DNA from: the human T2T-CHM13v2.0 reference genome, Homo sapiens
Length of the DNA: 64,000 nt
NCBI RefSeq assembly: GCF_009914755.1
Contig: NC_060928.1
Reading direction: 5' to 3' (one strand)
The notes beneath the pieces were generated by a model. That model saw only the letters and a list, made by a program, of their open reading frames with translations, made no database searches and had not been told where the DNA came from. Below, piece by piece: positions 22,849 through 26,758 of the stretch; within the stretch, counting starts at the first letter, position 1, and each line of letters starts with the position of its first letter. The position numbers and the translations under genes are program-made.

Positions 22849-23154
22849 TTTATTTATTTATTTTTATTTTTGAAGACAAGGTCTTGCTGTCACCCAGGCT
22901 GGAGTACAGTGGTATCATCACACCTTACTGCAGCCTCAACCTCCCAGGCTCAAGCAATCCACCTGCCTCAGCCTTTTGAGAAGCTGGGACTACAGGCATG
23001 CATCACTATGCCGGGCTAATTTTTTTTCATGTTTTATAGAGATGGGGTCTCACTATGTTGCCCAGGCTGGTCTCAAACTCCTGGGCTCAAGTAATCCTCT
23101 CACTTCAGGTTCCCAAAGTGCTGGGATTACAGATGTGAACCACCATGCCTGACC
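22849..23154 (-). mobile_element. AluJ full length
   Basis: (TTTA)n tail and AluJ-type ctcctgggctcaagtaatcctc. TSD tgtaca(g/a)aca(g/a)gttta on both sides. Confidence 0.95.
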
Positions 23155-23685
23155 TGTACAAACAAGTTTAGAGAATAATATACAAATATCCTTGCCCCAC
23201 TACATAGAATAAATTAATATTAATAATTTATTAAATTTGTTTTCTAGATTTAGATAAATGAAATAAATATTCCTAATAAAGTTCAAGTCCCATTTATAAT
23301 TTTTTCCTGGTCTCATCTTCATCTCCACAGACAAGCACTATCATAAATTGGTGTATTTTTTTAGTCTATATTTTGGTAATAAGAAAAAGAATAATTAGGA
23401 GGAAGAGAATGAGAAGGATAAAGGAACAATTACTTTTTTACATTTGTTGAGCACCTACTAATAACAGGGACTTTCTAAGTGCTTTTCACATATTACCTAA
23501 TATAATTATCAAAACAACTGGTTTTGTACACAAGAAAACTAAGGCACAGAGAGCTTATATAAATTTTATAAAGTCACATACATAGTAAGTGCTGGAACCA
23601 GAATATAAACCCAGCCATTGTACTGCATATACAAGTATATGTGTCCATTAACAGTGTTTTTAGTATTGTTTTCTATGTTTTAATA
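23052..23685 (+). repeat. left arm of ~634-bp near-perfect inverted repeat (partial AluJ + L1M + MIR)
   Basis: Reverse complement of 26126-26758. By eye only one substitution and one 1-bp indel, both in the Alu part. Confidence 0.97.
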
Positions 23686-23873
23686 TAGAGGTGTAAAGTG
23701 GGAAATCAGGGGTCTCAAGCCTTCAGAGCTGAGAGTCCCGAACAGAGATTTACCCACATATTTATTAACAACAAACCAGTCATTAGCATTGTTTCTATAG
23801 ATATTAAATTAACTAAAAGTATCCCTTATGGGAAATGAAGGGATGGACCGAATTAAAGGAATAGGTTGGGTTA
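23682..23873 (-). mobile_element. MER9 (HERV-K9/HML-3) LTR, middle piece
   Basis: Reverse complement reads ...aacctattcctttaattcggtccatcccttc...aataaatatgtgggtaaatctctgttcgg...cccactttacacctctatatt, as in MER9. Confidence 0.9.
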
Positions 23874-23933
23874 TGTCTATAATTCCTCTAGTGCCACTGG
23901 GTTAGGGTCTCCCCAACCGAGCTGGTCTTGGCA
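23874..23933 (+). mobile_element. MER9 LTR, 3' terminal piece (opposite orientation to the other two pieces)
   Basis: tgtctataattcctctagtgccactgggttagggtctccccaaccgagctggtcttggca is the MER9 3' end. Confidence 0.9.
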
Positions 23934-24269
23934 AACTTGCTCAGTTATTCAATCAATTACCAATCCAGAGGTGTTTCTGTCAAGGCACTTTGTAACTGTG
24001 ATTCAATTCTATAATCAGATTATTTTAAATTAATATTAGTAAGATTATCCTAGATAATGTGGATAAGACTGTTTAGAGCAGAACTAAGATTTACCTGAAA
24101 AAAAAATTCTGCCTGTGAACTACAGTTTTAACCTTTGCTCAAGAATTGCAACTGGCCTTTTCTGAAGGCCTGCCCTGTGAATTTCAAACTTGGCTCATCA
24201 ACCCTCATAATCATGTCTCTTAATATATTATCCTGCTGAATCTGTTTCTCTGGTGAAACTTGAGTTACA
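23934..24269 (+). mobile_element. MLT2 LTR body (host of the MER9 insertion); its 5' ~25 bp lie at 26998-27022 on the minus strand
   Basis: aacttg...agattatcctagataatgtgg...aattctgcctgtgaac...tctgtttctctggtgaaacttgagttaca. Confidence 0.75.
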
Positions 24270-24454
24270 TAGGTGGGAAGGAATTATTCTTAGTCGATCC
24301 TTGTAGAGCTGATATCCTCTACTTAAGTGACTTGACTCAAAGCTTTTTTTCTCTCAATTTTATTTCTTACATTTTGAGGTCTACAAGGAATATGTTTAGA
24401 TTATATATTTATGCATAACAAAATACTGAAAAATGTAATGCCTTACAACTAATC

Positions 24455-24683
24455 TTGATCACTTGAGGTCAAGAGTTCAAGACCAGCCTGGCCAACATGG
24501 CAAAACTTCATCTCTACTAAAAATACAAAAATTAGCAAAGTATGGTGGTGGGCGCCTGTAATCCCAGCTACTGGGAAGGTTGATTCAGGAGAATCGCTTG
24601 AACCCAGGAGGTGGAAGTTACAGTGAGCTGAGATCACACCATTGCACTCCAGCCTGGGTGACAGAGCAAAACAAAACAAAACA
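24455..24683 (+). mobile_element. 5'-truncated AluS within an old MLT1 LTR (~24390-25190, minus)
   Basis: Starts at gatcacttgaggtcaagagttc and ends in a (CAAAA)n tail. Confidence 0.92.
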
Positions 24684-25374
24684 GTAATTTTATTTTGATC
24701 AGGATTTTATGGGCCAGAAATTCCTGAAGGGCTGAGCTGGTTATTCTGTCTCTGATACATTTACTGTCAGCAGAGGTGTCTGGGGCTGGCAAATCTACTA
24801 CCAAGGTGGCTTCTCCACTTACGTAATTGGTACCTTGGTGCTCCATCATCTACCTCTTCCCAAAGGGTATCTCAGTCTGCAGTTCTCCTTGTGTGGACTG
24901 GGCTTCCGATGACATAGTCGTCTCAGGGTAGCTGTATTTCTTATATGGCTACAGCCATTAATAGGGAGGCAGAAAAAGCTGTCAAAGTTTTTAAGCCTGT
25001 GCCAGAAAATGGCACACAGTGACTTCTGCCATTTGTTGTTGGGCAAAGCAGTCTCAAGGCCCATCCAAACAGATTCAAGAGGGTGGAAAAACAATCTCCA
25101 CATCTTCATTGGGAGTAGCAAAGTGACATCAGAAGAGCAAATGGGACTAAATGATATTTTTAGTGACATTTTTGGACAATGTAATTTTACATGTCTACTT
25201 TTTCACATTTACTAGGTACCCAGCTTTTGAACTCAGTTTTTCATTCATTTCTGCTTTTAAACTAATTATCTCTCATAACATGCTATGTACAGTTATCAAA
25301 AAACAATTCAGACTACTAAAAAAATGGCTTTTCCATTTCTTCCTCATGAACTACTTACTCTAAATTGGCAATTT

Positions 25375-26190
25375 TTAAGTCAAGAAAAAGATAAGCTATT
25401 CACTAAGTGGTATTGGGACCATTGGCTCTTCATAGGAAAATTGATAGAATTAAATTTAATTATTTCATACCACACACATAAATCAATTAATTTTACAATT
25501 AATTAGTGGAAAAAAAAGGAAAAGTGACTCTACCAAAAGTAGAAGGGGAAGGGTTTTTAAAAAGTACAAATTATAAGAGTTATGGATTAAACTCTATTAA
25601 AATTCACAAAATTTATGTGAAACGTAAACAAAATGATACATGATTTAAAAAAACCTGTGAAAAACTGAAAGGATATATTTTTAACAAACAAATAATTTAT
25701 ATATGGAATTTGTTGAAATGCTTATATAAAGATGAAAAAGAGACTAACAATTCAAAAGATAATTAAGAAAAATACAAACCTAGTCAAGTTTTAGGGGAAA
25801 AAACCCAAAAGATTCCTATACTCTAATAACAAAGGAAATAATCATTAAAAAAAATTCACACATATCTGAATGAAAAAAATGTCTGACAGTATAGTTTTTG
25901 AAAGAATCTGAAACAAGCTGCAAATTCTAAAATCTTCTGGAGAAAATATAGTTTCATAAGGTAACAATTTACAGTCTTACTGAAAATAGAGCTGTATGTT
26001 CACTAGATCTAGCAATTTTCTATTACATATAATACTTTTTTGGAAACATTTACAAAGATATGCCTGTTTTGACAAAATAAATAATACATGTACCTGAAAA
26101 ATAAACCATTGAATGAAAAAAAAAGTATTAAAACATAGAAAACAATACTAAAAACACTGTTAATGGACACATATACTTGTATATGCAGTA
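25375..26190 (+). mobile_element. old L1M(E) 3' region
   Basis: agaaaaagataagctattcactaagtggtattgggaccattgg resembles the L1 ORF2 3' end. A-rich and continuous into the right inverted-repeat arm. Confidence 0.65.
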
Positions 26191-26758
26191 CAATGGCTGG
26201 GTTTATATTCTGGTTCCAGCACTTACTATGTATGTGACTTTATAAAATTTATATAAGCTCTCTGTGCCTTAGTTTTCTTGTGTACAAAACCAGTTGTTTT
26301 GATAATTATATTAGGTAATATGTGAAAAGCACTTAGAAAGTCCCTGTTATTAGTAGGTGCTCAACAAATGTAAAAAAGTAATTGTTCCTTTATCCTTCTC
26401 ATTCTCTTCCTCCTAATTATTCTTTTTCTTATTACCAAAATATAGACTAAAAAAATACACCAATTTATGATAGTGCTTGTCTGTGGAGATGAAGATGAGA
26501 CCAGGAAAAAATTATAAATGGGACTTGAACTTTATTAGGAATATTTATTTCATTTATCTAAATCTAGAAAACAAATTTAATAAATTATTAATATTAATTT
26601 ATTCTATGTAGTGGGGCAAGGATATTTGTATATTATTCTCTAAACTTGTTTGTACAGGTCAGGCATGGTGGTTCACATCTGTAATCCCAGCACTTTGGGA
26701 ACCTGAAGTGAGAGGATTACTTGAGCCCAAGAGTTTGAGACCAGCCTGGCAACATAGT
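26126..26758 (-). repeat. right arm of the inverted repeat (contains MIR ~26195-26372 and a truncated Alu left monomer ~26657-26758)
   Basis: Reverse complement of 23052-23685. Confidence 0.97.

What the first reader, a model, noticed from the sequence alone, without database searches (positions are those of the whole stretch)
23052..26758. Near-identical 634-bp inverted repeats around a 2.44-kb spacer: a potentially flippable cassette
Seen: the arms differ only by G/A at 26730 and one missing G near 26749, although they consist of ancient AluJ, MIR and L1M sequence. This implies a very recent duplication or ongoing gene conversion. Established: highly identical inverted repeats mediate recurrent NAHR inversions. 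Inference: the spacer 23686-26125 may segregate in both orientations. The flipped form (D-X-M3-inv(M2)-inv(D)-M1) could equally be the primary product of the original event, which would give up to three alleles. If transcribed, the arms would form a ~630-bp duplex, a possible ADAR/MDA5 substrate far better paired than typical Alu pairs.
Basis: partly seen in the sequence, partly recalled or inferred. Interest (0 to 1): 0.7.

Follow-up and report, generated by a model that had tools for sequence, protein, structure and literature searches.

The report
Young inverted duplication splitting an LTR
In a gene-free stretch of human chromosome 4, a 634-base piece sits twice in opposite directions around 2.4 kb of DNA and beside three scattered pieces of one old retroviral repeat, likely the scar of a single error-prone DNA repair event of a well-known kind, and the middle piece could flip but has likely done so once at most.

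Summary
The repeat is real: arms 23052-23685 and 26126-26758, 604 nt perfect, one substitution and one 1-nt gap; the non-Alu arm occurs only twice in CHM13. A ~510-nt solo LTR is cut into three pieces, and its 6-nt target duplication lies on both sides of the rearrangement, so CHM13 carries a derived allele about 631 nt longer, with three new joins. Both arm differences are on the new copy within 30 nt of one join, which points to errors at formation, not ageing or gene conversion. Identity only bounds the age to a few million years. This fits the known inverted-duplication class (<1 kb copied within 5 kb; Sudmant 2015). Here, though, most of the spacer is inverted too, so one earlier flip is possible (~25%). 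The two size-matched known inversions (HsInv0061, HsInv0040) are single-origin, so recurrent toggling is unlikely (~8%). No second haplotype was available; the locus was absent from the tables I could search. No gene, RNA family or transcript evidence supports the dsRNA idea. New member of a known kind; interest 0.35.

The parts
22845..23158 (-). Alu that runs unbroken across the outer edge of the left arm; marks the left arm as the original copy
   Evidence: continuous alignments to Alus in L002 and L003; SRP-like match 22871-23153 below gathering score
23052..23685 (+). left arm D (original copy, 634 nt)
   Evidence: carries the majority Alu base at 23081 and no gap at 23058-23067
23682..23685 (.). 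join J1: 4-nt microhomology between the end of D and the LTR middle piece
   Evidence: 4 nt shared in 6 of 7 intact LTR copies parsed; the seventh failed by a script indexing slip
23686..23873 (-). M2, middle piece of the solo LTR (188 nt), same orientation as M1; holds an AATAAA on the minus strand at 23761 (LTR sense strand is recalled, not tested)
   Evidence: 39 of 39 other scored copies match at 94-96%; 7 of 7 fetched copies
23862..23873 (.). first copy of the 12-nt stretch used twice; join J2 (blunt) follows at 23873/23874
23874..23933 (+). M3, terminal 60 nt of the same LTR, inverted relative to M2 and M1; about 10 nt present between M3 and M2 in intact copies are missing here
   Evidence: opposite-strand match in 39 of 39 other scored copies and 7 of 7 loci; gap size in 6 of 7
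23934..23939 (-). 6-nt target-site duplication of the LTR, inverted copy
   Evidence: reverse complement equals 26998-27003; chance about 5e-4
23940..26125 (.). X, single-copy spacer DNA, inverted relative to its inferred earlier orientation; holds a 5'-truncated Alu (24457-24700); no gene
   Evidence: 24701-26125 has 1 full match in CHM13 among 7 scored; 5 ATG ORFs of 68-107 aa only
26126..26758 (-). right arm, inverted new copy of D (633 nt); ends in mid-Alu at join J3
26730..26750 (.). the two differences between the arms (substitution at 26730, 1-nt loss near 26749-26750), both on the new copy, within 30 nt of J3
   Evidence: 13 of 16 other Alu alignments carry the left-arm base, 14 of 14 have no gap; chance of both in the outer 30 nt 0.002 (0.004 for either end)
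26759..26770 (.). second copy of the 12-nt stretch; join J3 at 26758/26759, with a 6-nt match to 26769-26774 that allows a microhomology-plus-slip reading
26759..26997 (-). M1, remaining piece of the solo LTR, left in place
   Evidence: 6 of 7 fetched copies match 26759-26981 at 86-91%; 39 other scored copies at 91-93%
26998..27003 (+). 6-nt target-site duplication of the LTR, in-place copy

Best explanation
The 634-nt inverted repeat and the three-way split of a solo LTR are the remains of one complex structural variant, likely made by error-prone template switching during break repair or replication within the last few million years, and the CHM13 orientation is likely the direct product, with no repeated flipping since. 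Shown: arm identity, the three LTR pieces, their orientations, the target-site duplication, the joins, and which arm is new. Inferred: earlier order D-X-LTR; a broken end at the 12-nt site in the LTR invaded about 3 kb upstream at the start of D on the other strand, made two small errors in its first 30 nt, copied D, X and M3 backwards to a second break inside the LTR, was joined bluntly to the loose M2 piece, and M2 annealed to the end of the original D through 4 nt of microhomology, dropping the original X. Net gain about 631 nt. The new repeat is a modest NAHR substrate: it could invert the spacer, rarely.
For: Three new joins with 4, 0 and 0-to-4 nt of microhomology, a 10-nt loss and a 12-nt reuse; target duplication on both sides fixes the earlier order; Alu unbroken on the left, cut on the right; both differences on the new copy next to J3, P about 0.002-0.004 if placed at random, as expected if SV formation is error-prone (PMC4937565 abstract). 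Most sequenced 1000 Genomes 'inversions' (54%) were inverted duplications of <1 kb inserted within 5 kb, read as replication errors, with no intermediates found (PMC4617611 passage); 18 of 21 non-homologous inversions carry small indels from a probable single FoSTeS/MMBIR event (PMC6748972 passage). Size-matched NAHR inversions are single-origin.
Against: No second haplotype or ape orthologue was seen, so the earlier order is reconstructed from repeats only. The joins are identical in both spacer orientations and cannot say which came first. The usual inverted duplication leaves the spacer in its old orientation, whereas here X is inverted; the flipped form is the simpler repair product (all four break ends used once, only 634 nt copied). 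With only two differences the clustering test is weak, and the T at the substituted site is also seen in 3 of 16 other Alu alignments. The D-X join could not be confirmed by an old repeat spanning it (only the two self matches).
Confidence: 0.55

Rival explanations
1. The flipped form (D-X-M3, inverted M2, inverted D, M1) arose first, as a 188-nt micro-inversion with a templated 634-nt insertion at one join; NAHR between the new arms later inverted the spacer once, giving the CHM13 allele. Up to three alleles would exist or have existed.
For: Uses each of the four break ends once and copies only D (segment map); it has the common geometry of Sudmant's inverted duplications; 604 nt of perfect identity 2.4 kb apart is in the range of validated NAHR inversions (repeats from 654 bp; HsInv0061 and HsInv0040).
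Against: Needs a second, rare event on the CHM13 lineage; 2 of 9 candidates with 500-1000-bp repeats among the 145 of 612 table rows I read were polymorphic, and 6 of 319 inverted SD pairs without prior evidence; Sudmant et al. found no intermediates; repeat/inversion ratio is only 0.26, and recurrence rises with that ratio (PMC7263195 passage, fitted on inversions >10 kb).
Confidence: 0.25
2. Two steps: a fold-back inverted duplication of D-X-M3 (2.9-kb arms, about 210-nt loop) was inserted between two copies of the 12-nt stretch; the near-palindrome was then stabilised by a one-sided 2.27-kb deletion (J1).
For: J1 is a plain microhomology deletion join, and its right end lies 10-14 nt inside the loop of the proposed palindrome; the 12-nt reuse looks like a re-entry slip; long arms with short spacers are less stable (PMC7999016 passages).
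Against: Needs two events; the same review reports that a 52-bp spacer already removes fork stalling in eukaryotic cells and that 6-kb arms with a 280-bp spacer are stable in wild-type yeast; no intermediate seen.
Confidence: 0.13
3. The arms are old and kept alike by gene conversion with recurrent flipping in the population.
For: Both differences lie at the outer edge, where conversion tracts would reach least; 21 of 24 NAHR inversions are recurrent.
Against: Both differences are derived on the same, new arm; the three exceptions to recurrence include both inversions with 650-760-bp repeats; one or two differences in 634 nt need no conversion if the age is under a few My.
Confidence: 0.05
4. 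Assembly artefact or a change private to the CHM13 cell line.
For: Only one assembly was seen; the locus is not in the inversion tables I could search.
Against: Three joins with microhomology, a 10-nt loss, a 12-nt reuse and two point differences are not what a fold-back read chimera gives (own knowledge); the unit is 3.7 kb, well inside long-read length; the searched tables are incomplete for small events.
Confidence: 0.04

Closest known systems
Inverted duplications ('Inverted Dup', 54% of 229 characterised 1000 Genomes inversion sites; Sudmant et al. 2015, PMC4617611; 277 events, median 284 bp, in Schloissnig et al. 2025, PMC12350158)
   Same: copy under 1 kb (634 nt) placed inverted within 5 kb (2.4 kb) of its source; no retrotransposition marks; template-switch-like joins
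   Different: most of the spacer is itself inverted relative to the inferred earlier order, and a 188-nt LTR piece is displaced; three joins instead of two
CNV-flanked complex inversions (dupINV and relatives; Collins et al. 2017, PMC5338099) and 'cut-and-paste' inversions (2 cases in PMC12350158)
   Same: inverted segment with a flanking duplication; X is removed from its place, inverted and set down 190 nt further on; MMBIR/FoSTeS or multi-break repair are the proposed mechanisms
   Different: 3.7 kb, below the ~5-kb resolution of the Collins study; I saw the class names and text, not the figure schematics
HsInv0061 (chr6, 654/656-bp repeats, 1.67-kb inversion) and HsInv0040 (chr2, 755/756 bp, 3.6 kb)
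   Same: repeat length and spacer size; show that such repeats can invert the spacer
   Different: both orientations are proven there and are single-origin; here no second orientation has been seen, and the repeat itself is made by the variant
MER9 / HERV-K(HML-3) solo LTR (name recalled, from no call)
   Same: ~510-nt dispersed family with over 1,100 first-look candidates in CHM13, short target duplications
   Different: this copy is in three pieces; the family name could not be confirmed (0 of 30 top Gag_p10 loci carry it)

Membership tests
Inverted duplication / complex SV by template switching | copied segment under 1 kb, inverted, within 5 kb of the source | tested here: met
   634 nt, 2440 nt apart; class definition
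Inverted duplication / complex SV by template switching | non-homologous joins with short microhomology, blunt ends or small indels | tested here: met
   J1 4 nt, J2 blunt, J3 blunt or 4 nt plus slip; 10-nt loss, 12-nt reuse
Inverted duplication / complex SV by template switching | small mutations clustered at a join on the new strand | tested here: met
   2 of 2 differences on the new arm within 30 nt of J3; small numbers
Inverted duplication / complex SV by template switching | an unduplicated allele in other humans or apes | not testable with these tools
   G000 has no relatives in the tool; earlier order inferred from LTR copies and target duplication
Simple inverted duplication (spacer in old orientation) | spacer keeps its earlier orientation | tested here: not met
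   M3, the target duplication and X are inverted relative to M1; only the flipped form would meet it
IR-mediated (NAHR) polymorphic inversion | highly identical inverted repeats at both breakpoints | tested here: met
   604 nt perfect; just under the 654-bp lower end in PMC6748972, above the 140-bp lower end in PMC13629690
IR-mediated (NAHR) polymorphic inversion | both orientations observed in people | not testable with these tools
   no haplotypes held; no entry at the locus in the tables searched, several of them cut or incomplete
Recurrent inversion | both orientations on mixed haplotypes, no tag SNP | not testable with these tools
   size-matched known cases are single-origin
Solo LTR of an endogenous retrovirus | ~500-nt dispersed repeat with a 5-6-nt target-site duplication and no internal region | tested here: met
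   511-515-nt alignments between L002 and 5 of 6 other copies; 6-nt duplication here
MER9 / HML-3 specifically | match to the named consensus or adjacency to an HML-3 internal region | tested here: inconclusive
   no repeat library held; 0 of the 30 best Gag_p10 loci (of 150 listed) carry the LTR; name recalled
ADAR/MDA5 dsRNA substrate | one transcript covering both arms, with A-to-I editing | not testable with these tools
   duplex would be strong, but no gene annotated in the window and no RNA data available

The most novel reading that the evidence does not exclude
The CHM13 allele is the flipped daughter of a young inverted duplication: one repair error built its own recombination substrate, and unduplicated, primary and flipped alleles all still segregate in people. 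The locus would be a small three-allele record of a non-homologous SV seeding an NAHR inversion, the kind of intermediate series that the 1000 Genomes analysis looked for and did not find, missed by GRCh38-based catalogues if the repeat is absent there.
Probability: 0.22. Interest if true: 0.55.

Novelty: new member of a known kind. Interest (0 to 1): 0.35.

Why it matters
As it stands it is a well-resolved example of a common class of human complex SV in a region without genes, so its biological weight is small. It matters a little as method: a split repeat and its target duplication give the direction of change from one genome alone, and the T2T reference here carries a derived allele that short reads will mis-call. 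If both spacer orientations segregate, it would show directly that sub-kilobase inverted duplications, the commonest 'inversion' class in people, can seed later NAHR inversions, and would give a rate point at the low end of repeat length. No effect on a gene is evident: nearest annotated genes are about 54 kb and 94 kb from the arms (hub annotation).

Tried and rejected
Another human haplotype: none held; microbial and viral collections were not searched for human DNA. Catalogue look-ups, all without a hit: Porubsky 2023 Table S1, 10 chr4 rows of a 375-row sheet in T2T coordinates, none at 44.04 Mb; Moreira-Pinhal 2026 tables, whole file searched for numbers starting 4404, 4407, 4408 (plain numeric format confirmed; hg38-based, excludes repeats absent from hg38 and, for unpredicted pairs, those under 1 kb); Schloissnig 2025 (file cut, the listed sheets hold no inversion table, so uninformative); Logsdon 2025 (file cut, one PDF unreadable, one too large); Chaisson 2019, 3 files; Sudmant 2015, 1 file of 235,000 characters (the full tables may not be in it). 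The hg38 (about +33 kb) and hg19 (about +35 kb) offsets used in these searches are recalled, from no call. Porubsky 2022, and two further papers sought by recalled id, were not held. Full-text searches for the locus (the second may have failed on punctuation) and for a secondary inversion after an inverted duplication in humans gave nothing relevant. Old repeat across the D-X join: not found. Strand skew as an orientation marker: uninformative. Local hairpins at J2/J3: only -2.0 and -3.2 kcal/mol, rejected as a cause. Naming the LTR through adjacent gag: 0 of 30 loci. Tandem repeats: none in 23052-26758. Rfam: 7 matches, all Alu-derived and below gathering score. Poly(A) hexamers inside the unit (6 AATAAA on plus, 7 on minus) are about what AT-rich DNA gives by my estimate, so I do not count them against read-through. 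Cruciform or hairpin fragility: rejected, spacer of 2.4 kb is far too long.
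Full report
Observation. The inverted repeat is there as described. The left arm is 23052-23685 and the right arm 26126-26758, with a 2440-nt spacer; they differ by one substitution (23081/26730) and one 1-nt gap near 26749-26750, leaving 604 nt of unbroken identity. No other inverted match of 60 nt or more reaches 90% in the window, and the non-Alu part of the arm has only these two full-length matches in CHM13 among 9 scored candidates. 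Chance and ordinary Alu pairing are excluded.

Anatomy. The first 250 nt of the spacer match a dispersed family: in 39 of 39 other scored copies, spacer positions 1-188 match on one strand (94-96%) and positions 189-250 on the other. Against seven fetched copies, 23686-23873 (M2) and the inverted 23874-23933 (M3) match in 7 of 7, and 26759-26981 (M1) continues M2 in 6 of 7. The copies are about 510 nt long. So one solo LTR lies here in three pieces. A 6-nt word flanks both ends of the LTR, at 26998-27003 and, inverted, at 23934-23939 (chance about 5e-4): the target-site duplication. It ties X to the LTR end and gives the earlier order D-X-LTR. The Alu at 22845-23158 runs unbroken over the outer edge of the left arm, whereas the right arm stops in mid-Alu, so the left arm is the original. 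The name MER9/HML-3 for the LTR is recalled; my attempt to confirm it found the LTR in 0 of the 30 best Gag_p10 loci. I could not confirm the D-X join through an old repeat spanning it.

Joins. J1 (D to M2) has 4 nt of microhomology and about 10 nt of the LTR are lost between M3 and M2 (6 of 7 copies parsed; the seventh failed by a script slip). J2 (M2 to inverted M3) is blunt. J3 (inverted D to M1) reuses 12 nt that also end M2 and can be read as a 4-nt microhomology, 2 nt of synthesis and a slip back (6-nt match at shift 14). The derived allele is about 631 nt longer. Both arm differences are on the new copy: 13 of 16 other Alu alignments carry the left-arm base (3 carry the right-arm base) and 14 of 14 have no gap. 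Both fall within 30 nt of J3, with chance 0.002, or 0.004 for either end. Raised SNP/indel density beside SV breakpoints is reported in PMC4937565 (abstract read). I infer errors at formation.

Age. Zero differences in 604 nt has probability 0.30-0.60 at 1 My, 0.09-0.35 at 2 My and 0.001-0.04 at 6 My for rates of 1.0 and 0.43e-9 per year (rates recalled). At 1.2% divergence, two or fewer differences has probability 0.019. The event is therefore likely on the human branch, either polymorphic or fixed; I put about 60:40 on polymorphic, by judgement.

Mechanism. Best reading (0.55): one template-switching repair event gave the CHM13 order directly. Rival (0.25): the flipped order came first, as a 188-nt micro-inversion with a templated copy of D at one join, and NAHR between the new arms inverted the spacer once. 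Rival (0.13): a fold-back duplication with 2.9-kb arms followed by a one-sided deletion; the review PMC7999016 (passages) gives the general rule that long arms and short spacers are unstable, but also examples where spacers of 52-280 bp are already stable. Old arms kept alike by conversion (0.05) and artefact or cell-line change (0.04) are unlikely.

Can it flip, and how often? But the three single-origin ones are HsInv0040, HsInv0061 and HsInv1051, and the first two have repeats of 755/756 and 654/656 bp (PMC13629690 Table S1), the closest in size to this locus. Among the 145 of 612 rows of that table that I read, 9 have repeats of 500-1000 bp and 2 are polymorphic; some of the rest may be reference errors. 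Only 6 of 319 inverted SD pairs without prior evidence were polymorphic in 54 people (main text parts 1-3 of 8 read). Recurrence rises with the repeat/inversion ratio (PMC7263195 passages); here it is 0.26. I put both orientations segregating today at about 0.22-0.25 and recurrent toggling at about 0.08.

RNA. A transcript over both arms would form a duplex of -1097 kcal/mol against -384 and -249 for two Alu pairs in the window. But no gene is annotated in the window (hub table), Rfam gives 7 Alu-derived matches all below gathering score, and the spacer has only 5 short ATG frames of 68-107 aa. I saw no transcript or editing data. The ADAR/MDA5 idea is unsupported, not refuted.

Comparison with what is known. 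Sudmant et al. 2015 (PMC4617611, passages) found that 54% of 229 characterised inversion sites were inverted duplications, nearly all under 1 kb and within 5 kb of the source, and ascribed them to one mutational process because intermediates were not found. Schloissnig et al. 2025 (PMC12350158, section 18 and passages) list 277 inverted duplications and 40 more complex inversions, 2 of them 'cut-and-paste'. Collins et al. 2017 (PMC5338099, passages) name dupINV and relatives. This locus works like these and meets the tested features, except that it is not a simple inverted duplication, because X is inverted as well.

Is it in print? I did not find it: Porubsky 2023 Table S1, 10 chr4 rows; number searches in the supplements of PMC13629690, PMC12350158, PMC12350169, PMC6467913 and PMC4617611; full-text searches (listings only). 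Several files were cut or lacked the relevant table, Porubsky 2022 was not held, the hg38/hg19 offsets are recalled, and no SV database could be queried, so it may well be catalogued. PMC11451754 was read in passages only; some searches were listings used to pick papers.

Verdict. Observation confirmed; interpretation partly supported. A real, young, three-join inverted duplication of a known kind in gene-free DNA. The open point of interest is whether the CHM13 allele is itself a flipped daughter, which one alignment to pangenome haplotypes would settle. Interest 0.35.

Noticed in passing
window 27093-27144: 22-nt tandem duplication, 2.4 copies at 96%, about 335 nt right of join J3; possibly a second young slip, unrelated or not
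   Followed up: no
window 24457-24700: 5'-truncated Alu on the plus strand inside the spacer; in the CHM13 order it is inverted to the Alu at 22845-23158 (75% over 138-210 nt), in the inferred earlier order the two were direct
   Followed up: partly
window 13750-14055 and 15960-16235: inverted Alu pair, 81% over 183 nt, 2.1 kb apart; an ordinary comparison case, duplex -384 kcal/mol
   Followed up: partly
window 18306-18739 and 19297-19477: old tandem units of 68/125 nt and 81 nt at 77-80%, probably inside one old LTR-type or L1-associated repeat (not tested)
   Followed up: no
window 8898-9469 against 10302-11599; 11206-11304 against 48123-48222: diverged direct (70-80%) and inverted (76%) matches, probably fragments of old repeats
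   Followed up: no
L006 (G000:C1:45192372-45195557): a copy of the same LTR family that matches only about 274 of 510 nt and is followed by Alus: another broken copy
   Followed up: no
window 32056-32108: perfect 6-nt microsatellite, 8.8 copies, just before an Alu
   Followed up: no
PMC13629690 supplement file 1: the code archive held under this paper appears to belong to a gene-prediction paper; the tables file is the right one
   Followed up: no
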